A stretch of DNA of 64,000 nucleotides from Pseudomonadota bacterium (GTDB lineage: Bacteria; Pseudomonadota; Alphaproteobacteria; Rhodobacterales; Rhodobacteraceae), in assembly GCA_036338635.1 (NCBI GenBank), contig JAYZBS010000045.1, positions 4,601 through 68,600 on the forward strand, read 5' to 3'. Below, in pieces: positions 39,116-64,000 of the stretch. Under the pieces are notes generated by a model that saw only the letters and a list, made by a program, of their open reading frames with translations, was not told the DNA's origin and made no database searches. Position 1 is the first letter of the stretch. Each line of letters begins with the position of its first letter. A program made the position numbers and the translations under genes.

Positions 39116-39163
39116 CGACGCCCACCGATCACGCAATCCGATCCAATTCATATGGAGGTCCCG

Positions 39164-44504: not shown

Positions 44505-45555
44505 GGCTTTGTTGCGCAAAGTCTGAAGGGGGATTCAGCTGTCGACTCCAGCGTGGTAACCGTGCTGCATGAGCAGACCCACCCCGCCGAGCTACAAGAC
44601 CAAGAACTGGCCAGCGTATAACGAAGCCCTCAAGCAGCGCGGCTCTCTGACCATCTGGTTCGACCCGGACATGGCGTGGGTGCCGCCACCGACCGGCATG
44701 CGAGGCCGGCAGCCGCAGTATAGCGATGCCGCGATCCAGACGTGCCTGACGATGAAGGTGCTCTTCGGCATGGCGCTCCGTCAGACGAGCGGCTTCGTCG
44801 AGAGCCTGCTGCGCCTGGCCGGCCTCGATTGGACGGTGCCGGATTTCAGCACGCTGAGCAGGCGCCAGAAGACGTTGGCCGTGTCCATTCCCTACCGGGG
44901 CTCACAGGGGCCGCTGAACCTGCTGATCGACAGCACCGGCATCAAGGCGGAGGGCGAAGGCGAGTGGAATGCCCGCAAGCACGGCGGCGCGAAACGCCGC
45001 CTCTGGCGCAAGATCCACATCGGCGTCGATGAACAGACGCTGGAAATTCGAGCCATCGAGGTTACCGGTAGCAGCGTCGGCGATGCGCCCATGCTGCCTG
45101 AACTGCTCAGCCAGATCCCCGCCGGTGTGGAGCTCGGCACGGTCACCGCGGATGGCGCCTACGACACGCGCAAGTGCCATGACGCCGTCGCCGACCGAGG
45201 CGCCCATGCGATCATTCCGCCGCGCAGGAACGCCAGGCCCTGGAAGCCATCGACAGCGGGCGCGATCGCCCGGAACGAAGCACTGCGCGCATCGAAATAC
45301 CTCGGCCGCGCGATTTGGCGAAAGTGGAGCGGTTACCATCGCCGAAGCCGCGCCGAGACGAAGATGCATTGCGTGAAGCTGCTCGGGCAGAGCCTCATGG
45401 CACGCGACTTCGACCGCCAAGTCGCTGAACTCCAAATCCGCGCCGCCGTGCTCAACGGCTACACCGCGCTCGGCATACCTGTCACAGAACTCGTGGGATA
45501 AGCCCGCCAGGGGAAAGGGGAAGCCCGGCCTTCAAGCTCTTTGCGCAACAAAGCC
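44505..45555 (+). mobile_element. Intact IS5-family (IS903 group) element, 1051 bp
   Basis: Perfect 16-bp TIR GGCTTTGTTGCGCAAA at 44505-44520 and 45540-45555; no flanking direct repeat. Confidence 0.95.
44569..45501 (+). CDS. IS5-family DDE transposase
   Basis: IDSTG, ADGAYD, RSRAETKM; uninterrupted 310 aa. Confidence 0.95.
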   Translation: MSRPTPPSYKTKNWPAYNEALKQRGSLTIWFDPDMAWVPPPTGMRGRQPQYSDAAIQTCLTMKVLFGMALRQTSGFVESLLRLAGLDWTVPDFSTLSRRQKTLAVSIPYRGSQGPLNLLIDSTGIKAEGEGEWNARKHGGAKRRLWRKIHIGVDEQTLEIRAIEVTGSSVGDAPMLPELLSQIPAGVELGTVTADGAYDTRKCHDAVADRGAHAIIPPRRNARPWKPSTAGAIARNEALRASKYLGRAIWRKWSGYHRRSRAETKMHCVKLLGQSLMARDFDRQVAELQIRAAVLNGYTALGIPVTELVG

Positions 45556-47109: not shown

Positions 47110-47152
47110 TGACGAATCCGACAGAAAAGATCAGATATGATCAAACGTGTCA
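47110..47152. promoter_or_regulatory. Tandem Iron-Rhodo-box-like sites in the divergent promoter
   Basis: TGAT-N7-GTCA (47138-47152) and CGAC-N7-ATCA (47119-47133) versus the TGAC-N7-GTCA consensus. Confidence 0.4.
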
Positions 47153-47167
47153 ATCCAGCAGGCGATC

Positions 47168-49261: not shown

Positions 49262-50142
49262 GGCGCGGAGCCCTATCACCCCGGCCCAACCGCCGCGCCG
49301 TTTTGACGGCCGTCGGCATCCTGCTGGCGGCGGGCCTGCCCCTGCGCGCGGATACGGTCCCGCGCCTGGCCGCCATAGACTGGGCGATGCTGGAAACCGC
49401 GACCGCCCTCGGCCACATGCCGGTGGCCGCGGCCGAACTGATCCGCTTTCGCGCCGACGTGGCGATCCCCGCCATCCCTGACACGGTCACCGATCTGGGC
49501 CTGCGCGGCGCGCCCAATTTCGAACTGCTGCAGCTGGTCCGCCCGACGCTGATCCTCAGCTCTCCGTACTATACCCGCTATCAGGCACGGATGGAGGCGA
49601 TCGCCCCGGTTCTGTCCCTGCCCTTCTACCTGCCCGATGAAGCGCCTCTGCCCAAGGCGATGGAGGCGCTGGACACGCTGGCCCGGCGGATCGGTGATCC
49701 TGCTTCAGGCACGCGCGCACGGGCGCGGGCCGATGCGCATCTGGACCGGCTGGCCGCGCGGGTCGCACGCCATGCGGACCGTCCGCTGGCGCTGGTCGAC
49801 ATCGGCGATGCGCGCCACCTGCGCGCATTCGGGTTCGACAGCTTGTTCGGCAGCACCCTGACCCGTATGGGCCTGCGCAACGCCTGGTCCGACGCGACGG
49901 CTTTCAGCTTCCTGGCCCCGGTGCCCCTGGAACGCTTGGCCGACATGCCCGACGCGCGGCTGGTCATTACCGGTCCCATTCCCCCGCAGGCGCGGGGCGC
50001 GCTGGCCCGCAGCCGGCTGTGGCAGGCCCTGCCGCAGGTGGCGCAGGGCCGCGTGCATCAGCTGTCGCGGATGAACGCCTTTGGCGGAGTGCCCGCCGCC
50101 CTTCATTTTGGCGACCTGCTGGCCGACGCCTTGGACGCATGA
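49255..50142 (+). CDS. fhuD: Ferric-hydroxamate periplasmic binding protein
   Basis: RR-like leader; IDWAMLETATALG; GLRGAPNFELL; start overlaps the receptor stop. Confidence 0.82.
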   Translation: MVGRGALSPRPNRRAVLTAVGILLAAGLPLRADTVPRLAAIDWAMLETATALGHMPVAAAELIRFRADVAIPAIPDTVTDLGLRGAPNFELLQLVRPTLILSSPYYTRYQARMEAIAPVLSLPFYLPDEAPLPKAMEALDTLARRIGDPASGTRARARADAHLDRLAARVARHADRPLALVDIGDARHLRAFGFDSLFGSTLTRMGLRNAWSDATAFSFLAPVPLERLADMPDARLVITGPIPPQARGALARSRLWQALPQVAQGRVHQLSRMNAFGGVPAALHFGDLLADALDA

Positions 50143-50146
50143 AGTG

Positions 50147-52102
50147 ATGACGACCCGGACCCTTGCGCCCTGTGCGGCCCTGATCGCCATGGCGCTGTGG
50201 TGGCTGGCGGCGCGCGCGCTGCCCATGCCCGCCCTGCCCTGGGACCCGCAGACGATGAGCCTGGACCAGATCCGCATGGCCTTTGGTCTGATGCCGCGCG
50301 GGGTCATCGCGCTGCTGGCGGGGGCGATGCTGGGCCTGTCGGGCGCGATCCTGCAGGTGGTGCTGCGCAACCCGGTGGCCGACCCCACGACCTTGGGCAT
50401 CAGCGCGGGCGCGCAGCTGGCGCTGGTGCTGGCCACGATCCTGCAGCCCACCCTGCTGGAAACGGGGCGCTGGCCGGTTGCCATGGCGGGCGCGGGCGCG
50501 GCCGCAGGACTGGTAATGGCCATCGGCGCGCGGCGCGCCTTCCAGCCGGTGACGATGGTCATTGCGGGCATGCTGGTCGGGCTGACAGCCAGCGCCGTCG
50601 CGGGCGCGGTTACGCTGGCGCAGGGACAGTATCTGCTGTCGCTGGTCATCTGGAACGGCGGGTCGCTGGTCCAGCAGGACTGGTCCGGGGTCGCGGCGCT
50701 GGCCGTGGTGCTGGCCCTGGGTGCGCTGGCCGCGGCGGCGCTGGCCCGGCCGCTGCGCCTGCTGTCCCTGGGGGCCGAGGGCGCGCAGGGTCTGGGCCTG
50801 AACGTGGCCGCGATGCGGCTGGCGGCGGTGACCGTCGCGGTGGTGCTGGCGGCGGCTGTGTCGGCGGAACTGGGGCTGATCGGATTCGTCGGGCTGGCCG
50901 CCCCTGCCTTGGTGCGCAGCCTGGGGGTCCGGACCATCGCCGGGCTGCTGGCGTGGTCACCGGTTCTGGGCGCGCTGATCCTGTCGATCTGCGACGGGCT
51001 GATCCTGACCCTGGCGGGCCTTGGGGCCGAAATGTTTCCCACCGGCGCGCTGACCGGCCTGGTGGGCGGGCCGCTGCTGATCTGGTTGCTGCCGCGGCTG
51101 CGCGGGACGACCCCGCCCGGCGCTGAATCGGGCGACCGCCCTGCCCCGCGGCTGACCCGCCCGGGGCCGCTGTTGGCGGCGATGTCGGTGGCCTTGGTCC
51201 TCGCAGGGCTGGTCCTGTTGTGGATCGGGCGGGTGCCGGGGGGCTGGGCGGTGCTGGACCGCGCGAACCTGGCGGCGTTTCTGCCCATGCGCCTGCCCCG
51301 CCTGCTGGCGGCGGCGGCGTCGGGGGCGGCGCTGGCGCTGGCCGGGGCGATCCTGCAGCGGCTGACCGTGAACCCCTTGGCCTCGCCCGAGGTGCTGGGC
51401 GTGTCGGGCGGCGCCTCGCTTGGCTACGCGGCGGTGGTCTTTGGCCTGGCCGCCCCTGGCGCGCTGGCGCTGGCTCTTGGGACGATGGCGGGGGGCGCGC
51501 TGGCGCTGGCGGTGCTGGTGGCCTTCACAGCGCGCCGAGACATGCCGGCGGAACGCGTGCTGCTGGCGGGCATCGCGGTGTCGGCCCTGGCCTCGGCCGT
51601 GCTGTCGGCGATGATGGCGGTGGGCGACGCGCGGGCTTGGGCCATCCTGTCCTGGCTGTCGGGATCGGCCGCCGCCGTGCCGATGGCGGGCGCCGTCGCA
51701 CTGGCCGGGCTAGCCACAGCCGTCTGGCTGGTGGCGTTGGCGCTCAGGCGCTGGCTAGCGCTGCTGCCACTTGGGGCGGGGGTCGCGCGCGGGGTGGGGC
51801 TGGGCCTGCCGCCCGCACGGCTGGCTCTGATCGTGCTGGCGGGGCTGGCCACGGGTGCCGCGACCATGGTCACCGGTCCCTTGTCCTTTGTCGGGCTGAT
51901 GGCCCCGCATCTGGCCCGCCGCGTCGGTCTGGCGCGACCCGGCGACCACTTGACCGGATCGGCGCTGATCGGGGCAGGGCTGATGCTGGCCGCCGATTTC
52001 GGCGCGCGCATGGCCGGCTTCCCCTATGAACTGCCGCTTGGGCTGTTCGCCTCGCTCATCGGGGCGCCTTGGCTGATCTGGCTGATGACGAGGCACCGAT
52101 GA
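50147..52102 (+). CDS. fhuB: Fused ferric-hydroxamate ABC permease
   Basis: Two FecCD halves: NPVADPTTLGISAG and NPLASPEVLGVSGG. Confidence 0.9.
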   Translation: MTTRTLAPCAALIAMALWWLAARALPMPALPWDPQTMSLDQIRMAFGLMPRGVIALLAGAMLGLSGAILQVVLRNPVADPTTLGISAGAQLALVLATILQPTLLETGRWPVAMAGAGAAAGLVMAIGARRAFQPVTMVIAGMLVGLTASAVAGAVTLAQGQYLLSLVIWNGGSLVQQDWSGVAALAVVLALGALAAAALARPLRLLSLGAEGAQGLGLNVAAMRLAAVTVAVVLAAAVSAELGLIGFVGLAAPALVRSLGVRTIAGLLAWSPVLGALILSICDGLILTLAGLGAEMFPTGALTGLVGGPLLIWLLPRLRGTTPPGAESGDRPAPRLTRPGPLLAAMSVALVLAGLVLLWIGRVPGGWAVLDRANLAAFLPMRLPRLLAAAASGAALALAGAILQRLTVNPLASPEVLGVSGGASLGYAAVVFGLAAPGALALALGTMAGGALALAVLVAFTARRDMPAERVLLAGIAVSALASAVLSAMMAVGDARAWAILSWLSGSAAAVPMAGAVALAGLATAVWLVALALRRWLALLPLGAGVARGVGLGLPPARLALIVLAGLATGAATMVTGPLSFVGLMAPHLARRVGLARPGDHLTGSALIGAGLMLAADFGARMAGFPYELPLGLFASLIGAPWLIWLMTRHR

Positions 52103-52866
52103 CCCTCTTCCACCTGTCCGGCCTGTCGGTCGACGTTCCCGGTCGCCGCCTGCTGGACGACATCACGCTGGACCTGCCTGCGGGCCGCACGACCGCGCTG
52201 ATCGGCCATAACGGGTCGGGCAAGTCGACGCTGCTGCGCGCGCTGGCCCGCCAGATCCCCGCCCAGGGCACCGCCACGTTCGAGGGGCGCGCCCTGACCG
52301 CCTGGCCCGCCCGCGATCTGGCCCGCCGCATGGCCTTCCTGCCCCAGACCACCCCCCCGGCCGATGGCATGCTGGTGCGCGAACTGGTGGCGCTTGGCCG
52401 CTATCCTTGGCACGGCGCTCTGGGCCGCTTTGGTCCCCCCGATCACGCCGCCGTCGCCCGCGCTCTGGTCGAATGCGGGGTCGAGGCCTTTGCCGACCGG
52501 CTGGTCGACACCCTGTCGGGCGGTGAACGCCAGCGCGCCTGGCTGGCCATGATGGTCGCGCAACAGGCAGGCACCCTGCTGCTGGACGAACCGATCAGCG
52601 CGCTGGACATCGCCCACCAGGTCGAGGTGCTGGCCCTGGTCGCCGCAATGTGCCACGACCAAGGGCGCAGTGCTGTCATCGTGCTGCATGACGTGAACAT
52701 GGCCGCGCGGTTCTGCGATCATGTCGTGGCGCTGAAAGCCGGGCAGTTGGTCTGGCAGGGCGGCCCGGACACCCTGATGCGCCCCGACACGCTGCACGAC
52801 ATCTATGGCCTGCCGATGCAGGTTTTGACCCGCCCGGACGGACGCCCCGTCGCCATTCCCGCCTGA
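52099..52866 (+). CDS. fhuC: Ferric-hydroxamate ABC ATPase
   Basis: GHNGSGKS, LSGGERQRAW, LLDEP, LHD. Confidence 0.9.
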   Translation: MTLFHLSGLSVDVPGRRLLDDITLDLPAGRTTALIGHNGSGKSTLLRALARQIPAQGTATFEGRALTAWPARDLARRMAFLPQTTPPADGMLVRELVALGRYPWHGALGRFGPPDHAAVARALVECGVEAFADRLVDTLSGGERQRAWLAMMVAQQAGTLLLDEPISALDIAHQVEVLALVAAMCHDQGRSAVIVLHDVNMAARFCDHVVALKAGQLVWQGGPDTLMRPDTLHDIYGLPMQVLTRPDGRPVAIPA

Positions 52867-52874
52867 GAGGCCGC

Positions 52875-54575
52875 ATGCTGAAAGACTTCTTTTCCTACTA
52901 TCGTCCGCATCTGGGCCTCTTCTGGCTGGATTTCGGCTGCGCCGTCATCTCGGGCCTGCTGGAACTGGCCTTTCCGCTGGCCGTCACCGCCTTCATCGAC
53001 CACCTGCTGCCGCAGGGCGACTGGACGCTGACGGTGGCCGCGGCCTGTGGTCTGCTGGCGCTGTATGCAGTCAACACCGGCCTTTTGACAGTGGTGATCT
53101 ACTGGGGGCACAAGCTGGGCATCAACATCGAGACCGCGATGCGGGCCCGCGCCTTCGACCACCTGACGCGGCTGTCCTGGCGCTGGTACGACCGTGCGCG
53201 CACCGGCAAGCTGGTCGCCCGCGTCACCCGCGACCTGGAGGAGATCGGAGAGGTCGCCCATCACGGCCCCGAGGACGCCTTTATCGCGCTGATGACCTTT
53301 GTAGGGGCCTTCGGGCTGATGTACTGGATCAACCCGCAGCTGGCGATCATCGTGGCGCTGATCGTGCCTGCCATGCTGACGCTGGTTATCGTTTATGGCG
53401 GGCGCATGACGCGGACCTGGCGCGCGATCTACTCCCGCGTGGGCGATTTCAACGTGCGCCTGGAGGAGACCTTGGGCGGCGTCCGTGTCGTGCAGGCCTT
53501 CGGCAACGAGGCGCATGAAAGCCACCTCTTCGCCGCTGACAACGCCCGCTATCGCCAGGCGAAGCTGGACGCCTATCGCGTGATGGCTGCATCCTCGGCG
53601 CTGCAATACATGGGCCTGCGGCTGGTGCAGGTGATTGTCATGGTCATGGGCGCGGGGTTCGTGCTGTCGGGCGACCTGACCACAGGCGGCTTCGTTGGGT
53701 TCCTGCTGCTGGTCAGCGTCTTTTACCGCCCGCTGGAAAAAATCGCCGCCGTCATCGAGACCTATCCCCGCGGCATCGCCGGGTTCCGTCGCTATCAGGA
53801 ACTGTTGGCGACCGATCCAGAAATCGCGGATACCCCCGACGCCACCCCCGCCCCCGCCCTGCGCGGGGACATCCGGTTCGAGGGGGTGGGCTTTGCCTAC
53901 GACCCAAACTGCCCAATCCTGTCGGGGATCGACCTGTCGATCCGCGCCGGAGAAACCGTAGCCTTTGTCGGCCCGTCGGGGGCGGGCAAGACCACGCTGC
54001 TGGCGCTGCTGCCGCGATTCTACGAGCCGACCGAGGGGAGGATCGTCGTCGACGGGCTCGCCCTGCCCGCGATGCGGCTGCACAGCCTGCGCCGCCAGAT
54101 CGGGTTGGTCAGCCAGGACGTGTTTTTGTTCGGTGGCACGCTGCGCGAGAACATTGCCTATGGTCGGCTGGATGCGACCGACATGGACATCGCGCAGGCT
54201 GCCGCCAAGGCGCAGCTGTCAGCGATGATCGAAAAATTGCCACAGGGGCTGGACACGATCGTAGGCGAACGCGGGGTGATGCTGTCGGGCGGCCAGAAAC
54301 AGCGTGTCGCAATCGCGCGGGCCTTCCTGAAGAACCCGCCGATCCTGATCCTGGACGAGGCGACCAGCGCCCTGGACAGCCAGACCGAACGTGAGATCCA
54401 GTTGGCGCTGGACGCGCTGTCGGTGGGCCGCACCACGCTGGTGATCGCCCACAGGCTTGGCACGATCCGCAACGCCGACAGGATCGTGGTGATGGACCAA
54501 GGCCGCATTGTAGAAACTGGTACCCATGTCGATCTTGTGTCGCAGGGTGGCATCTATGCCAGTCTTGCCGCCTAA
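52875..54575 (+). CDS. Fused ABC exporter (TMD + ATPase)
   Basis: TM domain followed by GPSGAGKT, LSGGQKQR, ILDEATSALD. Confidence 0.92.
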   Translation: MLKDFFSYYRPHLGLFWLDFGCAVISGLLELAFPLAVTAFIDHLLPQGDWTLTVAAACGLLALYAVNTGLLTVVIYWGHKLGINIETAMRARAFDHLTRLSWRWYDRARTGKLVARVTRDLEEIGEVAHHGPEDAFIALMTFVGAFGLMYWINPQLAIIVALIVPAMLTLVIVYGGRMTRTWRAIYSRVGDFNVRLEETLGGVRVVQAFGNEAHESHLFAADNARYRQAKLDAYRVMAASSALQYMGLRLVQVIVMVMGAGFVLSGDLTTGGFVGFLLLVSVFYRPLEKIAAVIETYPRGIAGFRRYQELLATDPEIADTPDATPAPALRGDIRFEGVGFAYDPNCPILSGIDLSIRAGETVAFVGPSGAGKTTLLALLPRFYEPTEGRIVVDGLALPAMRLHSLRRQIGLVSQDVFLFGGTLRENIAYGRLDATDMDIAQAAAKAQLSAMIEKLPQGLDTIVGERGVMLSGGQKQRVAIARAFLKNPPILILDEATSALDSQTEREIQLALDALSVGRTTLVIAHRLGTIRNADRIVVMDQGRIVETGTHVDLVSQGGIYASLAA

Positions 54576-54956
54576 GCCTTCCGATTAACTAATGGAACGA
54601 CCTTCGCAACAAAGTATCGGCCAGACAATCTGGAGCTCGGACACCGCTTACGAAGTTGCACTGGATCACTTGCCAAATTGTCGACCGGAGAGAGTGGGAG
54701 ACGACACCAGGAGGGAACGTCTCGATCCGCATAAGCCCAAAAATTGTCCGTAACACGGCCTCCGTCAAGGATAATCGCTGGCAACGGCTTTGGTATGCAC
54801 GTGATCTTGCGCGAGTTACAGGCATGCACAAGTCCATGATCCATGCAGCGGACAGCAAAGCACCGCAATCTAGACTTTTTAGTAAGTGTTTCTAACCTGC
54901 AGCCGTAACACCCGAAGCCGCCCATGATTCCGGCGTTGCGGCAGCCGAAGGACACA

Positions 54957-55643
54957 ATGATGGACAACCTCTCGCAGACCCTTTCCAGCCTGCCGCTGTT
55001 CGGTCTAATCCGTGACGGCGGCTGGACGATGTGGCTGATCGCGGCTCTCTCGGTCATCACGCTCACCATCGTCCTGTGGAGGCTCTTCGCGCTGTGGCGG
55101 CTCGGGGTCTGGGGCGGGCGCCATTCGCGCCGGGCGTTGCAGCTCTGGTCCGCCGGTCGCCCGGCCGAGGCCATTGCCAAGGTCCGCGGCCGCCCCTCGG
55201 CTCGCGCTCGCGTCGCGCAGGCGGCCATCGGCACGTCGCTGGACCCGCATTTCGATGAGGCCGCAGCGCGCGAGGAAACTGCACGGGTCGCCCGCAACAC
55301 ACTCTACCGGGCGCGCGGGGGGCTGCGGGCGCTTGAGCTGATCGCAACTATCGCGCCGCTGCTGGGCCTTCTGGGAACGGTTCTGGGGATTATCACTGCC
55401 TTCCAGGTGCTGCAGACCTCGGGCAATCAGGCCGATCCGGCCGATCTTGCGGGCGGTATCTGGGTCGCGCTGCTGACCACGGCGGCCGGCATGGCCGTGG
55501 CGATCCCGGCGGGGGTCGCGCTGTCCTGGTTTGAAAGCATTGCCGACCGCCTGCAGGCCGATCTCGAGGATCTGGCAACCCGCATCTTTGTCGCCGCTTC
55601 CGCACATGACGCCCGTCCCTTCCTGCGCGAGGCCGCGGAATGA
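54957..55643 (+). CDS. exbB: MotA/TolQ/ExbB proton channel
   Basis: IATIAPLLGLLGTVLG, GGIWVALLTTAAG. Confidence 0.9.
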   Translation: MMDNLSQTLSSLPLFGLIRDGGWTMWLIAALSVITLTIVLWRLFALWRLGVWGGRHSRRALQLWSAGRPAEAIAKVRGRPSARARVAQAAIGTSLDPHFDEAAAREETARVARNTLYRARGGLRALELIATIAPLLGLLGTVLGIITAFQVLQTSGNQADPADLAGGIWVALLTTAAGMAVAIPAGVALSWFESIADRLQADLEDLATRIFVAASAHDARPFLREAAE

Positions 55644-56038
55644 GCCTGCAGGTAGGGTTCGATCTCGGCCCGCGCCGACGCCCCCGGCGCATGTCGCTGA
55701 CGCCGATGATCGACGTCGTCTTCCTGCTGCTGATCTTTTTCATGCTTGCCTCGCGCTTTGGCATGGACGCGGTCCTCCCCATCGCGGGCGGCGCCGAAGG
55801 GGCGGGCAGCGATTGGCAGGGCGCTCCGCGCCTCGTGGACATTGCCCCGGTCGAGCTGCGCCTCAACGGCGCTCCGGTGACGCCCGAAACCCTGCCTGAG
55901 GCACTCTCCGACCTGCTGCCCAACCCCGCCGCCGCCGTGATCCTGCGCCCGCAAGAGGGAGCAGACCTCCAGCGCCTCGTCGATGTGATGGACCTGCTGA
56001 CGGCAGCGGGCCTGACGAATCTCATCCTGATCGAGTAG
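55640..56038 (+). CDS. exbD: ExbD/TolR biopolymer transporter
   Basis: SLTPMIDVVFLLLIFFML. Confidence 0.9.
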   Translation: MSLQVGFDLGPRRRPRRMSLTPMIDVVFLLLIFFMLASRFGMDAVLPIAGGAEGAGSDWQGAPRLVDIAPVELRLNGAPVTPETLPEALSDLLPNPAAAVILRPQEGADLQRLVDVMDLLTAAGLTNLILIE

Positions 56039-56042
56039 TTAG

Positions 56043-56427
56043 ATGCGCATCGACATGCCCCCAGGCGCCCGCGCGGCGAGTCCATCATCCCCATGATCAA
56101 CGTGGTCTTCCTGCTGCTGATCTTTTTCCTGCTGACTGCCCAGATCGCCCCCTCGACCCCCTTTCCGCTGACGCCGCCCGACAGCGCCTCGGACCTGCCG
56201 GCCGAGGGGCGCGACGTCCTCTTCGTTTCCGCTGACGGGGAGCTTGCTTGGAACGAGGCGAGGGGCAAGGCAGTCTGGGACGCCATCGCCGCGCGGACGG
56301 GCGAGAGCCCGCTCGAAATCCGCACCGATGCCGCGGCCGATGCCGCTGCCTTGGTCGCCCATCTGAAACGCCTGCGCGAGCTGTCGGAGAGCGGCGCGCG
56401 TCTCGTGGTCAGCGGAGGATGCCATGA
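56043..56427 (+). pseudogene. exbD: Second ExbD, frameshifted near 56060 and near its stop (~56420)
   Basis: MRIDMP|PRRPRGESIIPMINVVFLLLIFF; the C-run is one base short; the ORF reads through its expected stop. Confidence 0.75.
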
Positions 56428-57336
56428 TCTCACGCCGCACGCTGGAAACCGCCGGCTTCTTCACAATCGCTGCCGCCCTGCACGTCTCGACCGCCGCGAT
56501 CATGCTGCCCGAGCAACTGGAACGCGGCGAGCCCGCAGACGCGCCCCCCGCCGCCCTCGCGGCGGGGGGCGTCGAAGTGCAGGCGATGGTCGAGGCTTGG
56601 GAACCGCACCCGAACTAGCCGCACCCGCCGACATGCCCGAACCCATGCCCATGCCCGAGCCGGAACTGTCACCACCCGTACCGGAAGCGCCACCCGAGAT
56701 CGCACTGGCCCTCGCTCCGCCCCCGTCGATGACGCTGCCCGAAGCAGCGCCGACGCGACCCAACCTGCCCGAGCCTCCGGCCCCGCCGCGGATCAACCCG
56801 GCCCATTTGGACCTGCCTAAGCTGCAGGAACTCACCCCGCCGCAGATCGAGCCGCCCCTCGCGCTCGCCGCTTCGAACCGCCCCGAGCGACACCCGGAAC
56901 GCCGCGCCGCCCGATCTGCGCGCGACCCAGAGCCCCGCCGCCAGCAACAGGCCGAGCGCCTGTCCGCACCTGCTCCGGCCCCCTATCAAACCGGCCAAAG
57001 CGGTCAGTCCCAAGCCGCCAGCGCGGGCGGAGGCGGGGGCGGCGTCAGCGCGCCAGCCTGATGTCACAACGGGGCGGCCAGATCCGCAGCTGCATCAATC
57101 GCCGCGCCCGCGCCCCGCGCGGCCTGCGCGAGGGCGGGCAAGTCGTTCTCGCCCTGACCATCGGCCGCGACGGCGCGGTCCGCGGCGTAGGCCTGGCAGC
57201 CTCCTCGGGCCAGCCGGCTCTCGATCAGGCCGCCACCGATGCGGCCCGCCGTGCCGGCCGCTGCCCGGCCGCTCCAACGGGACTGAACGATGCGAGCTAC
57301 AGCTTCGAGCTGCCCCTCAGCCTCAACGTCAGGTGA
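56424..57336 (+). pseudogene. tonB: TonB, split into three pieces
   Basis: TM anchor with ALHVS (56424-56618); Pro-rich linker in another frame; TonB_C domain (GQIRSCI..LTIGRDG..SSGQPALDQAA) at 57061-57336. Confidence 0.82.
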
Positions 57337-57800: not shown

Positions 57801-58370
57801 GTGACGACATCAGATTTACGGACACTGCTGCGTCGCGAGAGTGCTGTTTTGCACGCTACGCTGGACAAGGGCATCGGTCATCTGACCGACGCGGCGGACT
57901 ACCGGCGTTACGTCCTTGGTAGTCACGCCTTTCGCGCCTCACTCGAACCAGCGCTTTCCAACGCCGAAGCCGCGACGGGCTGGCAACCGCTGCTGCTGGA
58001 GGCGGAACTCTACGGTGATCTTGCCGCCCTTGGCCTCTGCGCCATGACGCCTCTCGTGGCGCCGCCGCTGGAGAGCGAGGCCTCGCTGATCGGTGCGCTC
58101 TATGTGCTTGAAGGCTCTTCGCTTGGTGCGGTGCTATTGTCTCGGCAGGCCGCCGTACTGGGGTTTGACGCGACGCGGGGTGCGCTGCATCTGGCACGGC
58201 AGACTCATGATCCGCGTCGCTGGACTGCCTTCCAGCATGTGCTGCAGCAGCCAAATGTTGATCGCGACGAGGCATGTACCGCTGCGCGGGCGGTATTCCG
58301 GCTGGCGCTGGCGGCGTTCAGCGTGTCGGCGCCTGCCACCGTCGAAGTCTGTCTCGACGACTGTCGATAA
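57801..58370 (+). CDS. bphO: Biliverdin-producing heme oxygenase
   Basis: LRRES..LHATLD, LYVLEGSSLG; directly upstream of the phytochrome. Confidence 0.88.
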   Translation: MTTSDLRTLLRRESAVLHATLDKGIGHLTDAADYRRYVLGSHAFRASLEPALSNAEAATGWQPLLLEAELYGDLAALGLCAMTPLVAPPLESEASLIGALYVLEGSSLGAVLLSRQAAVLGFDATRGALHLARQTHDPRRWTAFQHVLQQPNVDRDEACTAARAVFRLALAAFSVSAPATVEVCLDDCR

Positions 58371-58411
58371 GCAATTGAACGTGCTGCTTGCCGCGGCCAT
58401 AGAGCGTTGGA

Positions 58412-60562
58412 ATGACCAAGCCACCTGACACCGAGACCGCCGCCGCCTTTCGCGCCGAACTGACCGCGTGCGACCTGGAGCCGATCCATATCCCTGGATC
58501 GATTCAATCCCACGGCCACTTGCTGATCTTTGGTCACGACCTGACGCTGCACGGCGTCGCCAGCCGGGATGCCGCTTTGGCCGGTGCCGCTTCGGGCATG
58601 CCCCTGAACCAGCTTCTCGACGGGGCATTGGCGCATTTGAAGCTTGAAACCCTTGGTCCGCACGAAGGCACGCAGGTCATGCAGAGCGTTCACGCGCTCG
58701 GGCAGAACTGGGATGTCGTAGCCTATAGAAGTGGCGCCTATATCATGGTCGAGCTTCTGCCCACCGACGCGACGGAGACGCTGGATGCGCGCTTCATCGG
58801 CCGGATGCAGGCGCTGGACGGCGTATTGGAGCGGTCAGCGTCGTTGGTCGATCTCTATCGCAACGCGGCCGAGGTGTTCCGGCAACTGACCGGCTATGCC
58901 CGGGTGATGGTATACCGTTTTCTTGCAGGAGAAGCCGGCGTCGTGGTCGGCGAAAGCCGCGCCGGCGATTCGGGCAGCTTCATGAACCACCACTTCCCAG
59001 CCAGCGACATTCCCGCTCAGGCGCGGGCGCTTTATGTGCGCAACCGAATTCGGGTCATTGCCGATGCGAGGGCGGACGTGCAGCCGATCATCGGGAAGGA
59101 TGCCGGCATCGCCGAGGTCGATCTGAGCGATTCAATGCTCCGCAGCGTGTCTCCCATTCATCTGCAGTATCTACAAAACATGGGGGTCCGGGCGTCGGCC
59201 TCAATGTCGATCGTGCAGAACGGCATGCTGTGGGGGCTGATTGCCTGCCACGATCCCGAACCGCGAAACGTGTCTTTGACCACGCGGCTGGCCTGCGTCA
59301 GCCTTGCAGAAAGCCTCTCGCGCCAGATCCGCCTGCGCGAGGAGACGCTGCTTTACCGCGAACGTATCCGGCTGCGCTCGGCCGAGGATGCCATCATGGC
59401 AAAGCTGGGCAAGGATGAGGGGCTGAACAACTTCTTTGCAGATGCGGCACCCGGGCTGAGGGAGCTGGTGGACGCAACCGGCTTTGCCGCCGTGCAGGGC
59501 AGCGAAATATTCACCCACGGCGAATGCCCGCCGCACGAGGACTTACGCAAGATCGCCGAGCGACTGCGCAACGGGGCAGCGGTCCGTCCCTTCGCCACTG
59601 CACGACTCGGCACCGATCTTCCGGACGCGACCATCCGCCTGGACATCGCCTCTGGTCTTCTGGCGGTGACGATGTCGACCGAAGTGCCGACCGTCCTCAT
59701 CTGGCTACGCGCCGAAGAGCTTCAGGTTCTGACTTGGGCCGGGAACCCACACAAGGACGTGGCGATGCGGCCGGGGGCCGAGTTGGAACCGCGCGCATCT
59801 TTCGAGGCGTGGTCTGAACAGGTGCGTGGCCGCGCACGCCCGTGGAGTACTGCCGAGATCGAGGCGGCGGGCCGGCTGGTGCGGCTGCTGCTGGAAGCGC
59901 GCAACGCGCTTCGCATCCGACGCCTGCACTCGGAGCTGTCGGTTGTGGTGCGCGAGAACGAGAGCCTGCTGCGCCAGAAGGACTTTCTGCTGAAAGAGGT
60001 GAACCATCGCGTCCAGAACAGCCTCTCGCTTGTTGGGTCGTTCCTTCGCATGCAGGCGCGCGGCGCTGAGCCTTCGGTGCGCGCCCAGCTTGAAGAGGCG
60101 CAGGGCCGATTGGCGGCGGTAAGCCTGGTCCATCGCCGTCTCTATCAGGACGACCGCGCCGAAATCGTGGACCTGTCCATCTATCTGGACGATCTGCTGC
60201 GCGACATGCGTGCGGCGCTGGATCCTCGCTGGAGCACGCTGATCGAAGGAGAGTTCGCGCCGATCCTGGTTTCCGCAGATGCGGCGGTGACCATCGGATT
60301 GCTGGTGAATGAGCTGGTCGCCAACGCGATCAAATATGCCTATGGCGGAGAGCCAGGGCCGATTGCCGTGACGCTGGCCGCCTGGCGCGACGGCTTCCGG
60401 CTACAGGTTGCCGATCGCGGGGTCGGATCTGGCGGAGCGGTGCAGGGCACAGGGTTCGGGACACGGATGATCGACGCACTAGTCTCGCAGCTTGGCGGAA
60501 CGGTCCAGTCAGAAGCAAACGAACCGGGTCTACGCATCTCGGTTGTCGGGGTGCTTAGCTGA
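58412..60562 (+). CDS. bphP: Bacteriophytochrome PAS-GAF-PHY-HisKA_2-HATPase
   Basis: Chromophore Cys in CDLEPIHIPGSIQ; HFPASDIP; PIHLQYL; PRASF; KEVNHRVQN; NELVANAIKY; DRGVG; GFG. Confidence 0.95.
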   Translation: MTKPPDTETAAAFRAELTACDLEPIHIPGSIQSHGHLLIFGHDLTLHGVASRDAALAGAASGMPLNQLLDGALAHLKLETLGPHEGTQVMQSVHALGQNWDVVAYRSGAYIMVELLPTDATETLDARFIGRMQALDGVLERSASLVDLYRNAAEVFRQLTGYARVMVYRFLAGEAGVVVGESRAGDSGSFMNHHFPASDIPAQARALYVRNRIRVIADARADVQPIIGKDAGIAEVDLSDSMLRSVSPIHLQYLQNMGVRASASMSIVQNGMLWGLIACHDPEPRNVSLTTRLACVSLAESLSRQIRLREETLLYRERIRLRSAEDAIMAKLGKDEGLNNFFADAAPGLRELVDATGFAAVQGSEIFTHGECPPHEDLRKIAERLRNGAAVRPFATARLGTDLPDATIRLDIASGLLAVTMSTEVPTVLIWLRAEELQVLTWAGNPHKDVAMRPGAELEPRASFEAWSEQVRGRARPWSTAEIEAAGRLVRLLLEARNALRIRRLHSELSVVVRENESLLRQKDFLLKEVNHRVQNSLSLVGSFLRMQARGAEPSVRAQLEEAQGRLAAVSLVHRRLYQDDRAEIVDLSIYLDDLLRDMRAALDPRWSTLIEGEFAPILVSADAAVTIGLLVNELVANAIKYAYGGEPGPIAVTLAAWRDGFRLQVADRGVGSGGAVQGTGFGTRMIDALVSQLGGTVQSEANEPGLRISVVGVLS

Positions 60563-60611
60563 AGCCCCGCCTCGACTTGGAGATACATGCCGGCTGCGCG
60601 CCGATCGTCGT

Positions 60612-61049
60612 TCAGGCCACCCGGGGCACGGGACTGAAACCTGCCGGAACGCTCTGATCGTCAGCTGTGCCTCTGAGCAACTGCTGGATATATTGAAGCG
60701 CCGCCGCGAAGCCGGTTGCCGAAAAGGGTTTCCCGATCACACCGATGGCGCCATCGCAGCCTTCGGGAACCTTTTTCGGATTGGCCGTCACGAAGATGAT
60801 CGCGGTGTCGGGCCAGCGTGCGCGGATCTCGGCACTTGCCTCCAGACCATTCGACCCGCCGGCCAGGTTCATGTCGACAAGAGCCAGATCGGGCGCCGCT
60901 GCCGCGGACAATGCCTTGATGTCATCCAGCGAAGTGCAGGTTGCGACGGGCTGATGGCCGGCGTCCTCGATCATCATTTCGATGTCCATGGCAATGATGA
61001 GCTCGTCCTCGACCACGAGGATGGACAGCGGTGGCGCCTTGTCGTTCAT
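60612..61049 (-). CDS. Single-domain response regulator receiver
   Basis: VVEDE, ALVDMNL (phospho-Asp), IFVTAN, GKPF; ATGA-coupled to the LOV gene. Confidence 0.9.
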   Translation of the reverse strand: MNDKAPPLSILVVEDELIIAMDIEMMIEDAGHQPVATCTSLDDIKALSAAAAPDLALVDMNLAGGSNGLEASAEIRARWPDTAIIFVTANPKKVPEGCDGAIGVIGKPFSATGFAAALQYIQQLLRGTADDQSVPAGFSPVPRVA

Positions 61050-62164
61050 GAATGATCTCTCGCAATGGAAAGTATGACCTCGAGGTCCCCGCCGTCGGCC
61101 TGGGACCACTCGACGCGCGTGCGCGTCTGAGCCGCAAGGCGCGTGATGATCTGTGCGGTGATGCCGCTCGGCGAAAAGCTTGATGGCGATTCTCCTGCGG
61201 CCTGCCCCGAGACCCGGATCCGCAACTCGACCTTCCTGACATCTGCAGAAGAGGAGATATCCAGATAGCCCCCCTCGCGCCCGGCTATCATATGGTTGAG
61301 CACTTCGTTGACCACGAGCCCGCTGGCCGAGGCTTGACCGGCCGGGATCTCCGCGCGGCCAAGATCCGCCCGCACGCGCAGCTCTGCACCGGTCTGGCCT
61401 TGCGCTAGATCCGACGCCAGACCGACAGCGTAGGACCCGATATCGAAGCGTGTCACATCCTCGGCCTGATAGAGATGACGATGCACGCTGGCGATCGCGT
61501 CAATTCTAGACATCATCAGCCGCAGCAGATCTGCGGTCGCGGAATCCTGGGCCACACGCAGCTGCATGCGCAGGATCGAACCGATCATCGTCATGTTGTT
61601 CTTCACGCGGTGGTCAACTTCGTGCAGCAGCAGTCGCTGTGCGTCCAGCGCGTCACGCAGTTCGGCCACGCGCCGGGCGACCTCGGCCTCGACCAGTGCC
61701 TTCTCTCGCATCACGCGGGCCTGCTGATCGATCCGGTCGGTGATATCCACCTGTGACGCGAAGTGAAAACGGATGACCCCCGCGTCGTCCCGAACCGGGC
61801 TGACGTAGAGAGCGTTCCAGAACGGCGTGCCGTCCTTGCGGTAGTTCAGCAGGTCGACCGACGTGTCCTCGCCAGTCGCGATCGCTTGCCGAACCTTCGC
61901 AACGGCCGTGGGATCTGTGTTCGGGCCCTGCAGAAAACGGCAGTTCCGTCCAATCAGTTCTTCGCGCGTGTATCCGGTCAGCTTCTGGAAGGACGCGTTC
62001 GCAAAGACGATCGGGTTGTCGGACTGGTTGGGGTCCGTGATGATCATCGGCATTCGGGTCGCCCGAACAGCTGCAGCAAAGGGATCGCCGCGCCCATGCT
62101 CGTGGTGCAGCGCCTCCGTCAGCGTCCAATCGTCTTGCTGTCTCACCAGTTCATCCCGATTCAA
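61046..62164 (-). CDS. LOV-domain HisKA_2 sensor with degenerate HATPase domain
   Basis: GRNCRFLQ, NYRKDGTPFWN, SQVD; H-box HEVDHRVKNN; N/G1/G2 boxes eroded. Start is TTG 62164 or GTG ~62146. Confidence 0.9.
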   Translation of the reverse strand: MNRDELVRQQDDWTLTEALHHEHGRGDPFAAAVRATRMPMIITDPNQSDNPIVFANASFQKLTGYTREELIGRNCRFLQGPNTDPTAVAKVRQAIATGEDTSVDLLNYRKDGTPFWNALYVSPVRDDAGVIRFHFASQVDITDRIDQQARVMREKALVEAEVARRVAELRDALDAQRLLLHEVDHRVKNNMTMIGSILRMQLRVAQDSATADLLRLMMSRIDAIASVHRHLYQAEDVTRFDIGSYAVGLASDLAQGQTGAELRVRADLGRAEIPAGQASASGLVVNEVLNHMIAGREGGYLDISSSADVRKVELRIRVSGQAAGESPSSFSPSGITAQIITRLAAQTRTRVEWSQADGGDLEVILSIARDHS

Positions 62165-62390: not shown

Positions 62391-64000
62391 TCAATCGGGA
62401 ACGCGCTGACCCAGAATGCTACGAGGCGCTGCAGGCTCCTCTCGCCGGGGTTCTGGGGCCACCGCGTTCTCTTTTGTCATGACAGCGACGACATCAGCTG
62501 CGATCTTGTCGAGCAGGTCCAATTCGGCATCTTCAATCCGGCGCGGCGAACGATCCACGATGGAGAGCGCGCCCAACACATGCCCTTCTAGAGTGCGGAG
62601 TGGTACGCTGGCGTAAAAGCGTCCCTGCCACTGCCGCACCGACTGATTGTCAGAGAAGCGCGGGTCGCGTTCCGTGTCCGGCACAACAAGCGAGTCGTTG
62701 GATGCGACGACATGGCTGCAAAGCGACTCAGCGCGCGGCATGTAGGTCATGCTCGCCTTGGTCGCAGTCCGCTGTCCGGGCAGATCCATACTCTGTCCTA
62801 GGATGTATTCCGCGTCGGCGTCGAGGGCGGAAATGAAGGCGAAGCTGACATCGAAAACATCTGAGGCGCGCGAGGCCAGCTCATCCAGATCCTCGCGCGC
62901 ATGGCCGTCCAGAATGTCGGTGGGGGCCAGTGCTTTCAGTCGCGCAGTCTCGGTTTCAGAGGATGCGGGCAGGCTTGCTGTAGCCATATGCTCGGGCTGC
63001 ATCAGCGACATGCGGCGCACGGCTTCGTCCATCGACAGCACGATCTGATCAACGCCGAGAGCTTCGGCCCGATGAGCAAACTCTGCGCCATCGGGTGCGT
63101 TCCACAACGCCAGAATGATCCGCACGTCGGGCCAGCGACGGCGGATACGGCGCACGAAGCCACGTACTGCCGTGTCGGGATCCCGGCTGAGATAGCCGAT
63201 ATAGACCGTGTCGACGCCCTCCAGCTCCAGCCCGTCGACGTAGCGTGCAGTAACGACGCCAGTCGCCCGCAGTTCTGCGGGGACGCCTGCAAGCGCCAGC
63301 GCGTGGACCAGCATCTCGGCCGCAATGGCAACGACCTGCCACTTGCCGCCGATACAGATCGTAGAGGCGTGACCGGCCTCAGGGGCAGGTGGTCCTCGCG
63401 GATTTTTTCCAGAAGGCGGTCCATGCCGGCGACAACGCGCAGGCGATGCTTCACGCGGGCATGCGAATGATAGCCCTTGCTGGTCTGGCGCAGGACTTCG
63501 AGCTCGATATCGTCATAGAACTCGGTCACTATGCTGGCACTTATTGACTCTGACGCAAGCTCATAGGCCTCTTCGGGATCGCTGGCGATCAGGCGTTGAT
63601 AGATGCGCCTCGGAAGGTTCAGCGCCGGGGCTGAGCCAGGTAGTGTTCCAAAGAACGCCATCTGGGGCACGTTGCGGCCTTGGACCAGCAGGCAAACCGT
63701 CAGCGGCGTGGACAGGATCAGGCCAAGCGGCCCCCAGAGGGCGGTCCAGAAGGTTGCCGCCGCGATCGACGACAGTGCCGACAACCCGGTCGAGGTCCCA
63801 CAAAGAAACGGCTCCACGATGTTGTTGCTGACCAGCTCCAGGAACAGGATCAGCGCTGGTGCCATCAGCACCATCTGCCAGCCCGGATCGACAGCGAAGG
63901 CCAAAGCCAGCAGGAAGGCGGCCGACAGCAACGGTCCAACGTAGGGAATAAACCGCATGATCGCGGCCAAGGTGCCCCACAGAACCCGACCCGGCACGCC
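62391..64000 (-). pseudogene. AI-2E family transporter fused to a C-terminal GAF domain; frameshift near 63390; 5' end outside window
   Basis: RFIPYVGP..EP...TGLS..FWTALWGPLGLILSTPLTVCL; the downstream frame has a GAF domain (CSHVV..VPDTERDPRF..FYASVPL). Confidence 0.75.

What the first reader, a model, noticed from the sequence alone, without database searches (positions are those of the whole stretch)
57801..62164. Convergent red/far-red and blue light module sharing one receiver protein
bphO-bphP(HisKA_2) faces LOV(HisKA_2)-RR, and both chromophore cysteines are intact. It is established that HWE/HisKA_2 kinases and single-domain receivers feed the alphaproteobacterial general stress response (PhyR-NepR-EcfG), none of which is encoded here. 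I infer a portable two-colour integrator that plugs into the host stress pathway in a locus with no photosynthesis genes.
Basis: partly seen in the sequence, partly recalled or inferred. Interest (0 to 1): 0.7.

Follow-up and report, generated by a model that had tools for sequence, protein, structure and literature searches.

The report
Two-colour light module with dead-kinase LOV sensor
A non-photosynthetic Paracoccus carries a conserved four-gene unit: a red/far-red phytochrome kinase with its haem oxygenase, facing a blue-light LOV protein and a small receiver. The LOV "kinase" has lost its ATP-binding motifs, so it probably relays or removes phosphate rather than making it.

Summary
HO (57801-58370) and BphP (58412-60562) converge on RR (60612-61049) and LOV-HisKA_2 (61046-62164). 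Both chromophore cysteines are present (BphP Cys20, LOV Cys75).

Three points change the interpretation:

1. **The LOV protein is probably not a kinase.** It keeps the HRxxN phospho-histidine. It has lost the N-box Asn and the G1 and G2 motifs. All six other HWE/HisKA_2 kinases of this genome keep the N-box Asn and G2. Another first-stage note on this same window says the same; I reached it independently and tested it.

2. **The two halves are co-inherited, but asymmetrically.** In 155 Paracoccus species, all 10 orthologous BphPs sit next to LOV-RR. Five species keep LOV-RR alone. A divergent version of the same trio occurs in Rhizobiaceae, once on a conjugative plasmid.

3. **The stress-response core is present elsewhere in the genome.** PhyR-NepR-EcfG plus a PhyK-like kinase lie on another contig. 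PhyR was found in 154 of 155 Paracoccus genomes.

My best reading is a GSR-type phosphorelay. BphP would be the phosphodonor, the RR an SdrG/LovR-like shuttle, and the LOV protein a blue-light-gated phosphotransferase or phosphatase, like PhyT or Caulobacter LovK. The phosphotransfer steps are inferred, not shown. "Portable" is only weakly supported. Verdict: a new variant of a known kind, moderately interesting.

The parts
57801..58370 (+). Haem oxygenase (BphO-like), 189 aa. It would supply biliverdin for the phytochrome.
   Evidence: Pfam PF01126 gives 19.2 bits, below the cut-off of 23. It matches pa-HO 1sk7 at E=6e-8 and HemO 1j77 at E=6e-6. An HMM of its orthologues finds an HO next to BphP in 29 loci. 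It lies 41 nt upstream of bphP on the same strand.
58412..60562 (+). Bacteriophytochrome histidine kinase (PAS_2-GAF-PHY-HisKA_2-HATPase_c), 716 aa. The catalytic domain is intact. It is the only phytochrome in the genome.
   Evidence: Pfam: PHY 1.5e-45, HisKA_2 4.3e-17, HATPase_c and HATPase_c_2. Cys20, DIP, SPIH, PRASF, N-box NELVANAIKYA, G1 DRGVG and G2 GTGFG are read. There is a single PHY match in the genome.
60563..60611 (.). 49-bp gap between the two convergent stop codons. No intrinsic terminator was detected.
   Evidence: Sequence. No terminator-like site lies here. Folding is no better than shuffles on either strand, z = +1.3. In relatives the gap is 4-13 bp.
60612..61049 (-). Single-domain response regulator (LovR/SdrG-like), 145 aa, phospho-acceptor Asp59. 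It is translationally coupled to the LOV gene.
   Evidence: Response_reg 2e-14. NCBIfam PRK13435 gives 108 bits and the PhyR receiver 82.7 bits. It is the second-best PhyR-receiver match in the genome. Best PDB hits are PhyR receiver domains, plus 2n9u, SdrG 5ieb and Sma0114 2lpm. ATGA overlap. The KPFSATGF motif and the 4-nt overlap are conserved in orthologues.
61046..62164 (-). LOV-HisKA_2 protein with a degenerate catalytic domain (pseudokinase; candidate light-gated phosphotransferase or phosphatase). The likely true start is the GTG at 62146.
   Evidence: PAS_9 1.8e-22 and HisKA_2 3e-20, but no HATPase hit. Cys75 sits in GRNCRFLQG and His185 in HRVKNN. The N-box reads NEVLNHMI, G1 reads RVSG, and G2 reads PSGITAQII, against NEILTNAIKHA / DDGPG / GLG in homologues. 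The AF2 model has mean pLDDT 85.9 and the CA-like fold is kept. Top fold hits are EL346 4r3a and YF1 4gcz. dN/dS of the CA-like domain is 0.13-0.54.
62391..64000 (-). Neighbour, probably not part of the module: a broken AI-2E-transporter/GAF gene upstream of the LOV gene. It runs past the window end to about 64450.
   Evidence: Pfam hits for GAF and for an AI-2E_transport fragment. Against an intact 792-aa homologue it shows a frameshift near 63356-63392 and lacks the first 120 aa. An IS5-family fragment follows.

Best explanation
This is an accessory, vertically co-inherited photosensory module of Paracoccaceae. It probably forms a small phosphorelay of the alphaproteobacterial general-stress-response (GSR) type.

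Shown:
- bphO-bphP encodes a complete biliverdin phytochrome with an intact HisKA_2 kinase.
- The facing operon encodes a photochemically competent LOV domain fused to a HisKA_2 DHp domain. It keeps the HRxxN phospho-histidine, but its catalytic domain has lost the N-box Asn and the G1 and G2 motifs.
- The LOV gene is translationally coupled to a LovR/SdrG-like single-domain receiver.

Inferred:
- The LOV protein cannot autophosphorylate.
- BphP, the only competent kinase in the unit, supplies phosphate under red/far-red control, to the receiver and/or to PhyR.
- The LOV protein acts on the receiver through His185 as a blue-light-gated histidine phosphotransferase and/or phosphatase.
- It then either passes phosphate on towards PhyR, as S. 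melonis PhyT does, or drains it, as the Caulobacter LovK-LovR sink does.
- The output would be EcfG-dependent transcription from the phyR-nepR-ecfG locus on contig C25.
- Where BphP has been lost, other HWE/HisKA_2 kinases would feed the same LOV-RR pair.
For: Domain content and motifs.

Loss of ATP-binding motifs:
- No HATPase hit.
- The closest homologues listed lack PF02518, while most of the more distant ones carry it.
- Motif table.
- In this genome the N-box Asn and G2 are kept in the six other HWE/HisKA_2 kinases and lost only here.

The LOV gene is not decaying. dN/dS is 0.02-0.15 for DHp, 0.08-0.19 for LOV and 0.13-0.54 for the CA-like domain. The fold is predicted confidently.

Linkage:
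- In 155 Paracoccus species the 10 BphP orthologues all co-occur with LOV-RR. Nine are adjacent and convergent. The tenth is split across contig ends, with the RR still abutting BphP.
- The BphP and LOV trees show the same starred groupings.
- A divergent RR<LOV | BphP> version occurs in 7 Rhizobiaceae loci and on a conjugative Neorhizobium plasmid.
- No other receiver lies in the bphOP operon.

CA degeneration arose at least 3 times, each in a clade linked to BphP. An unlinked Rhizobium LOV-HK is intact, while the linked Neorhizobium one is degenerate.

Precedent:
- PhyT has HRxxN and a degenerated ATPase domain, and relays phosphate from SdrG to PhyR (PMC5898713).
- Caulobacter LovK and PhyK work as phosphotransferases even with G1/G2 mutations, and LovK-LovR is a phosphate sink (PMC5964349).

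The GSR core is present in the genome.
Against: - No phosphotransfer step has been tested.
- Four Paracoccus species keep a CA-degenerate LOV-RR with no phytochrome at all and no relic of one, so BphP is dispensable for it.
- P. aerius and a MAG have the convergent module with an intact CA domain.
- Most BphP relatives of this family are orphan kinases, so the adjacent RR need not be BphP's substrate.
- The DHp domains of BphP and LOV are no closer to each other (36%) than to other kinases of the genome.
- No EcfG-type promoter (GGAAC-N15-18-CGTT) occurs anywhere in the window.
- The link between BphP adjacency and CA loss is not statistically demonstrable. Independent contrasts gave 2 same, 0 opposite and 4 unchanged, p about 0.5.
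- Motif loss predicts loss of ATP binding but does not prove it.
Confidence: 0.5

Rival explanations
1. Two independent light pathways that merely travel together. BphP would be an orphan Pak-type kinase signalling directly to PhyR or to a distant regulator. LOV-RR would be a self-contained LovK-LovR-like sink fed by other kinases. Adjacency would reflect co-transfer or co-regulation, not shared phosphotransfer.
For: - Most BphP relatives have no RR within 2.5 kb.
- LOV-RR is an old two-gene cassette with a 4-nt overlap, found without BphP in Sphingomonas, Altererythrobacter, Aliihoeflea and Rhizobium.
- Five Paracoccus species have LOV-RR only.
- Falsirhodobacter flavus has both sensors unlinked.
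- RR sequences barely differ between a BphP-bearing species and a close relative lacking BphP (L049 vs L090).
Against: - All 10 BphP orthologues in the genus are linked to LOV-RR, although flanks are reshuffled.
- The same trio is linked in a different orientation in Rhizobiaceae.
- The bphOP operon has no receiver of its own.
Confidence: 0.27
2. One reading: both sensors are autokinases, and each phosphorylates the one shared receiver.
For: - Both have HisKA_2 DHp domains with HRxxN.
- There is one receiver between them.
- In P. aerius-type modules the LOV-HK catalytic domain is intact, so this may have been the ancestral state.
Against: In this window the LOV protein lacks the N-box Asn, G1 and G2, and gives no HATPase hit. 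Its close homologues are the same.
Confidence: 0.08
3. BphP and the LOV protein form a DHp heterodimer. The BphP catalytic domain would phosphorylate LOV His185 in trans, or the LOV protein would inhibit BphP in a RetS/GacS-like way (that comparison is from my own knowledge).
For: - Both have the same DHp family.
- A related LOV-HK autophosphorylates in trans (PMC11580852 abstract).
- A dead kinase sits next to a live one.
Against: - DHp identity is only 36%, no higher than to other kinases of the genome.
- Degenerate LOV-RR persists without any BphP.
- I found no heterodimer precedent for HisKA_2 photoreceptors in the papers searched.
Confidence: 0.1
4. The LOV gene is a decaying remnant and only BphP is functional.
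For: Loss of the catalytic motifs. The upstream AI-2E/GAF gene is broken and IS fragments are nearby.
Against: - The frame is open, and LOV and DHp are under strong purifying selection (dN/dS 0.02-0.19).
- The degenerate form is conserved across at least 12 sequences in Paracoccus, with the ATGA coupling kept.
- The fold is predicted confidently.
Confidence: 0.03

Closest known systems
Caulobacter crescentus LovK-LovR (with MrrA and PhyK) in the general stress response (PMC5964349)
   Same: A LOV-HisKA_2 protein is encoded with a single-domain receiver in one operon. LovK functions as a histidine phosphotransferase and LovR~P phosphatase, even when G1/G2 are mutated.
   Different: Caulobacter LovK keeps catalytic motifs; here they are naturally lost. 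Here a bacteriophytochrome kinase is physically linked. No experiment exists for Paracoccus.
Sphingomonas melonis Pak-SdrG-PhyT-PhyR phosphorelay (PMC5898713)
   Same: PhyT has the HRxxN DHp motif with a degenerated ATPase domain, and relays phosphate from the single-domain receiver SdrG to PhyR. The RR here resembles SdrG and the PhyR receiver.
   Different: [quoted passage not shown]
Short LOV-HK plus receiver pairs of Erythrobacter, Rubellimicrobium and Brucella (EL346 4r3a, RT-HK, LOV-HK 6ph4; 10.1101/641647, PMC11580852)
   Same: Same LOV-Jalpha-HisKA_2-CA architecture and size. The LOV domain aligns best with Brucella LOV-HK chains (6ph4 and its constructs), and EL346 is the best fold match. 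These proteins regulate PhyR and the GSR by light.
   Different: Those proteins autophosphorylate. The window's protein lacks the ATP-binding motifs.
bphO-bphP operons; Pseudomonas syringae BphP1 / LOV-HK integration (PMC3684834)
   Same: A haem oxygenase lies upstream of a biliverdin phytochrome kinase. In P. syringae, red/far-red and blue inputs are integrated in one behaviour (title and abstract).
   Different: In the papers I saw, the P. syringae sensors are treated as separate genes, with no shared locus described. Here the kinase output is HisKA_2 and the two sensors form one conserved gene cluster.

Membership tests
Bacteriophytochrome (BphP) | PAS_2-GAF-PHY photosensory core with an N-terminal biliverdin-binding Cys, plus the DIP, SPIH and PRxSF motifs | tested here: met
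   Pfam PAS_2, GAF and PHY. NCBIfam BphP gives 288 bits over residues 14-504, below the equivalog cut-off. Cys20, SDIP, SPIH and PRASF are read.
LOV photosensor | GXNCRFLQ flavin-adduct cysteine motif in a PAS fold | tested here: met
   GRNCRFLQG with Cys75, invariant across 65 homologues. Brucella LOV-HK constructs 6ph4 and 6ph3 match at E=1.9e-44 and 2.9e-39.
HWE/HisKA_2 histidine kinase (active autokinase) | HRxxN phospho-acceptor motif in the DHp domain | tested here: met
   BphP has NHRVQN and the LOV protein has DHRVKN. HisKA_2 hits are 4.3e-17 and 3e-20.
HWE/HisKA_2 histidine kinase (active autokinase) | Catalytic domain with the N-box Asn and the G2 glycine motif for Mg-ATP binding | tested here: not met
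   Not met for the LOV protein: no HATPase hit; NEVLNHMI and PSGITAQII; it is the only one of 7 family members in the genome lacking both. Met for BphP.
PhyT-type histidine phosphotransferase | HRxxN DHp together with a degenerated ATPase domain | tested here: met
   Definition taken from PMC5898713.
PhyT-type histidine phosphotransferase | Membrane-anchored and encoded at the phyR locus | tested here: not met
   The protein has cytoplasmic LOV architecture with no TM segment in the model. phyR is on contig C25, not C45.
PhyT-type histidine phosphotransferase | Transfers phosphate from a single-domain receiver to PhyR | not testable with these tools
   Needs in vitro phosphotransfer assays.
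FAT GUY / SdrG-LovR-type single-domain response regulator | Receiver domain only, with the PhyR receiver as its closest homologue | tested here: met
   145 aa with a single Response_reg domain. PhyR receiver chains top the PDB hits; SdrG 5ieb and Sma0114 2lpm are also found.
FAT GUY / SdrG-LovR-type single-domain response regulator | PFxFATGY motif (consensus recalled from memory) | tested here: inconclusive
   The window has KPFSATGF and orthologues have KPFS[SA]xGF. This is a partial match to a consensus I could not check in a tool.
Haem oxygenase (BphO) | HO family membership and a position in an operon with bphP | tested here: met
   The Pfam score is below the cut-off (19.2 vs 23), but pa-HO matches at E=6e-8. 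The gene is co-directional, 41 nt upstream of bphP, and the layout recurs in 29 loci.
Mobile genetic element ('portable' module) | Defined boundaries (repeats, integrase or transposase pair) or atypical composition | tested here: not met
   GC3 lies at the 10th-36th percentile of the genome. The IS5-family copies at 44.6 and 64.6 kb are 74% identical over 538 nt. In favour: flanks are not conserved between lineages, and relatives sit on plasmids.

The most novel reading that the evidence does not exclude
A natural two-colour logic gate built from a live and a dead histidine kinase. Red/far-red light would set phosphate entry through BphP. A LOV protein that has become a light-gated histidine phosphotransferase or phosphatase would set, under blue light, whether that phosphate reaches PhyR or is drained through the coupled receiver. 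The catalytic domain would have been lost repeatedly (at least 3 times) once LOV-RR became linked to a phytochrome kinase.
Probability: 0.3. Interest if true: 0.75.

Novelty: new variant of a known kind. Interest (0 to 1): 0.6.

Why it matters
LOV kinases and bacteriophytochromes are studied as separate, self-sufficient sensors and are widely used as optogenetic parts.

A conserved gene cluster that pairs them would give a direct, testable case of how a non-phototroph combines two colours of light at the level of phosphate flow. This is sharper still because the LOV member has naturally given up ATP binding while keeping its phospho-histidine and its coupled receiver.

It would also be a natural counterpart of the finding that Caulobacter LovK/PhyK and S. 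melonis PhyT act as phosphotransferases rather than kinases. That would extend the idea to a light-gated, soluble protein.

Cultured type strains carry the module (P. sediminilitoris, P. saliphilus, and P. aerius with an intact catalytic domain). They offer a built-in comparison for experiments.

Tried and rejected
- **EcfG promoter.** A search for GGAAC-N15-18-CGTT found 0 matches in the window, against 1.1 expected. There is no sign that the module belongs to the EcfG regulon.
- **Terminator.** The terminator scan and folding of the convergent gap found nothing above shuffles.
- **DHp similarity.** I used it as a proxy for shared partner specificity. BphP vs LOV is 36%, no higher than to other kinases, so it is uninformative.
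- **Horizontal transfer by composition.** GC3 is unremarkable.
- **Composite transposon.** The two IS5-family pieces are only 74% identical.
- **Phytochrome relics.** None were found in the LOV-only loci.
- **Class-wide survey.** Only 3 of 400 genomes had a close LOV-HK. That is too sparse for a base rate, so I did not run the matching BphP search.
- **Independent-contrast test of BphP adjacency against CA loss.** It was underpowered: 2 same, 0 opposite, 4 unchanged, p about 0.5. My regex also misclassified P0102 as degenerate, although Pfam lists a HATPase domain for it.
- **Context look-ups.** Two were not on record.
- **Literature.** Searches found no paper on Paracoccus photoreceptors, on BphP-PhyR links, or on LOV kinases with degenerate catalytic domains. 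The library is incomplete, so this is not proof of absence.
- **Bathy or canonical phytochrome.** I could not decide this from sequence.

Full report
**What is there**

The window is G000:C45:4601-68600 of a 3.5-Mb, 203-contig, 66.3% G+C genome. Its closest relatives in public genomes are Paracoccus species. The BphP is 77% identical to that of P. sediminilitoris.

- **HO, 57801-58370 (+).** It scores below Pfam's cut-off (19.2 against 23 bits). It matches P. aeruginosa haem oxygenase 1sk7 at E=6e-8. It has orthologues next to BphP in 29 related loci.
- **BphP, 58412-60562 (+).** Its domains are PAS_2-GAF-PHY-HisKA_2-HATPase_c. It has Cys20 and the DIP, SPIH and PRASF motifs. Its N, G1 and G2 boxes are intact. 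It is the only phytochrome in the genome.
- **LOV protein, 61046-62164 (-).** It has GRNCRFLQG with Cys75 and an HRxxN phospho-histidine, His185.
- **Receiver, 60612-61049 (-).** Its ATG overlaps the LOV gene's TGA as ATGA.

The convergent stop codons are 49 bp apart. No terminator-like structure lies between them.

**The LOV "kinase" has a degenerate catalytic domain**

Pfam finds PAS and HisKA_2 in the LOV protein, but no HATPase domain. It finds HATPase in BphP.

Aligned with BphP and with homologues, the LOV motifs differ as follows:

| Motif | Window LOV protein | Homologues |
|---|---|---|
| N-box | NEVLNHMI | NEILTNAIKHA |
| G1 | RVSG | DDGPG |
| G2 | PSGITAQII | GLGxxLI |

The precomputed Pfam annotation of homologues agrees. 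The closest ones, which are Paracoccus and Falsirhodobacter proteins, lack PF02518. Most of the more distant short LOV-HKs carry it.

Within this genome there are seven HWE/HisKA_2 proteins. Six keep the N-box Asn and G2. Only the LOV protein has lost both.

The gene is not decaying. dN/dS between close orthologues is 0.02-0.15 for the DHp domain, 0.08-0.19 for LOV, and 0.13-0.54 for the CA-like domain. An AlphaFold2 model has mean pLDDT 85.9, with the CA-like alpha/beta fold intact and a short, low-confidence loop where the ATP lid would be. Its best fold matches are EL346 and YF1.

A first-stage note on the same window (e1-5275560) makes the same observation. I had reached it before reading that note, and the tests above support it.

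On a tree built from the LOV and DHp columns only, the degenerate state needs at least three changes:
- a Paracoccus clade of 12 rows;
- Falsirhodobacter, 3 rows;
- a Rhizobiaceae clade of 8 rows.

An intact clade (P. aerius, P. laeviglucosivorans, and the protein named Cereibacter sp.) is sister to the degenerate Paracoccus clade.

**Are the two halves co-conserved?**

In 155 Paracoccus species genomes, BphP orthologues (at least 54% identity, about 715 aa) occur in 10, and LOV orthologues in 15.

All 10 BphP genomes have the LOV gene. In nine the genes are adjacent and convergent. In the tenth, a fragmented assembly, the RR abuts BphP at a contig end and the LOV gene sits at another contig end.

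Five species have LOV-RR only. They have no phytochrome of this type and no relic of one. Four of these are CA-degenerate and nest among BphP-bearing relatives, which suggests BphP was lost secondarily.

The BphP and LOV trees share the same strongly supported groupings, with Falsirhodobacter outside Paracoccus in both. This fits long co-inheritance.

Flanking genes are shared only between close relatives. None of the window's flanks recur elsewhere.

Outside the family, 78 BphP(HisKA_2) rows, the window's included, were surveyed. They divide as follows:

| Arrangement | Count | Where |
|---|---|---|
| Convergent | 11 rows labelled (window included; one Rhizobiales locus has the LOV gene 5 kb away), plus 2 loci cut by contig ends | Paracoccaceae |
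| Divergent, RR<LOV \| BphP> | 7 | Rhizobiaceae |
| Co-directional LOV-HK-REC hybrid abutting BphP | 2 | Sphingomonadaceae |
| No LOV nearby (labelled 'none'; includes the 2 contig-end loci above) | 58 | mostly no receiver within 2.5 kb |

A further divergent copy lies on a conjugative Neorhizobium plasmid. Its LOV protein is CA-degenerate, while a Rhizobium tumorigenes plasmid LOV-HK-RR without BphP is intact.

Intact LOV-HK-RR cassettes without BphP are common in Sphingomonadales and elsewhere.

A phylogenetically controlled test of "BphP adjacency goes with CA loss" is underpowered. It gave 2 contrasts the same way, 0 opposite and 4 unchanged, p about 0.5. I therefore treat that association as a lead only.

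**Link to the general stress response**

The receiver is a single-domain protein. Its best matches are PhyR receiver domains, SdrG and Sma0114. It is the second-best PhyR-receiver match in the genome.

The window encodes no PhyR, NepR or EcfG. Contig C25 carries all of them:
- phyR, at 359 bits;
- a 48-aa NepR-like ORF;
- an ECF sigma factor;
- a 610-aa PhyK-like HisKA_2 kinase.

PhyR was found in 154 of 155 Paracoccus genomes. The GSR core is therefore universal in the genus, and the light module is an accessory input found in about 6% of species.

No EcfG-type promoter was found in the window. No reaction-centre genes were found in the 96%-complete genome.

**Mechanism**

Two published systems give the closest functional analogies.

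- In S. melonis, PhyT has HRxxN and a degenerated ATPase domain. It relays phosphate from the single-domain receiver SdrG to PhyR (PMC5898713).
- In Caulobacter, LovK and PhyK act as histidine phosphotransferases even with G1/G2 mutations. LovK-LovR forms a phosphate sink (PMC5964349).

By analogy I propose the following. BphP is the phosphodonor under red/far-red control. The receiver is the shuttle. The LOV protein is a blue-light-gated phosphotransferase or phosphatase acting through His185. It would either pass phosphate on to PhyR or drain it.

This accounts for four observations:
- the loss of ATP binding with the DHp domain retained;
- the ATGA coupling of the LOV and receiver genes;
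- the absence of a receiver in the bphOP operon;
- the survival of LOV-RR after BphP loss, when other kinases would feed it.

All phosphotransfer steps are inferred. The main rival is that the two pathways are functionally separate and only co-inherited. I put my reading at about 0.5 and that rival at about 0.27.

**Portability**

Evidence for mobility in this window is weak.
- GC3 of the four genes lies at the 10th-36th percentile of the genome.
- An intact IS5-family transposase at 44569-45501 and a fragment at about 64.6 kb bracket the region, but they are only 74% identical.
- The gene upstream of the LOV gene, an AI-2E transporter with a GAF domain, is truncated and frameshifted.

The patchy distribution, the reshuffled flanks and the plasmid-borne relatives are compatible with occasional transfer. 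They do not prove it.

**Verdict**

The module is a new variant of known GSR-type light signalling. In the library searched I found no description of this gene cluster or of CA-degenerate LOV kinases.

Noticed in passing
window 62391-64000 (continues to about 64450 on the contig; L009:391-2450): An AI-2E-transporter/GAF gene upstream of the LOV gene is broken. It has a frameshift near 63356-63392 and lacks the first ~120 aa, compared with an intact 792-aa homologue in P. laeviglucosivorans. Intact homologues lie 2-3 kb from the LOV gene in three other loci (L094, L026, L013).
   Followed up: partly
window 44569-45501 (+) and L009:2639-3139 (about 64.6 kb in window coordinates): An intact IS5-family DDE transposase and a partial second copy bracket the iron-uptake and light-module region. 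They are only 74% identical over 538 nt, so they are not a pair of identical arms.
   Followed up: yes
window 47147-57336 (+): A TonB-dependent receptor, FecCD permease, two ABC ATPase genes and ExbB-ExbD-ExbD-TonB form an iron/haem-uptake-like cluster directly upstream of the haem oxygenase. This neighbourhood is not conserved in other module-bearing species.
   Followed up: partly
RR orthologues: L010-L049, L090-L094; window 60612-60680: The receivers carry a conserved C-terminal tail beyond the receiver fold: PPPVSPxPGSFVASPAFAA in Paracoccus and Falsirhodobacter, PPSLVLA in Rhizobiaceae. It has diverged in the window's copy. It could be a docking peptide.
   Followed up: no
L070:5831-7852 and L071:10145-11863: In a Sphingomonas paucimobilis MAG and in Novosphingobium sp. 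Leaf2, a LOV-kinase-receiver hybrid gene abuts the BphP gene on the same strand. This is a third kind of LOV-phytochrome linkage.
   Followed up: no
L100 and L037 (Falsirhodobacter flavus assembly JARWBI01): One genome holds an intact-CA LOV-HK-RR pair and, on another contig, a BphP with its own same-strand receiver. It would be a useful natural 'unlinked' comparison.
   Followed up: partly
L103:8397-8810: In the locus carrying the Sphingomonas jatrophae LOV-HK (a Logan contig), a BLUF-domain protein lies about 3 kb from the LOV-HK-RR pair.
   Followed up: no
window 39152-41293 (+): A 713-aa AAA plus Peptidase_M41 (FtsH-like) protein. It was seen while checking context and is also noted by the first stage.
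   Followed up: no
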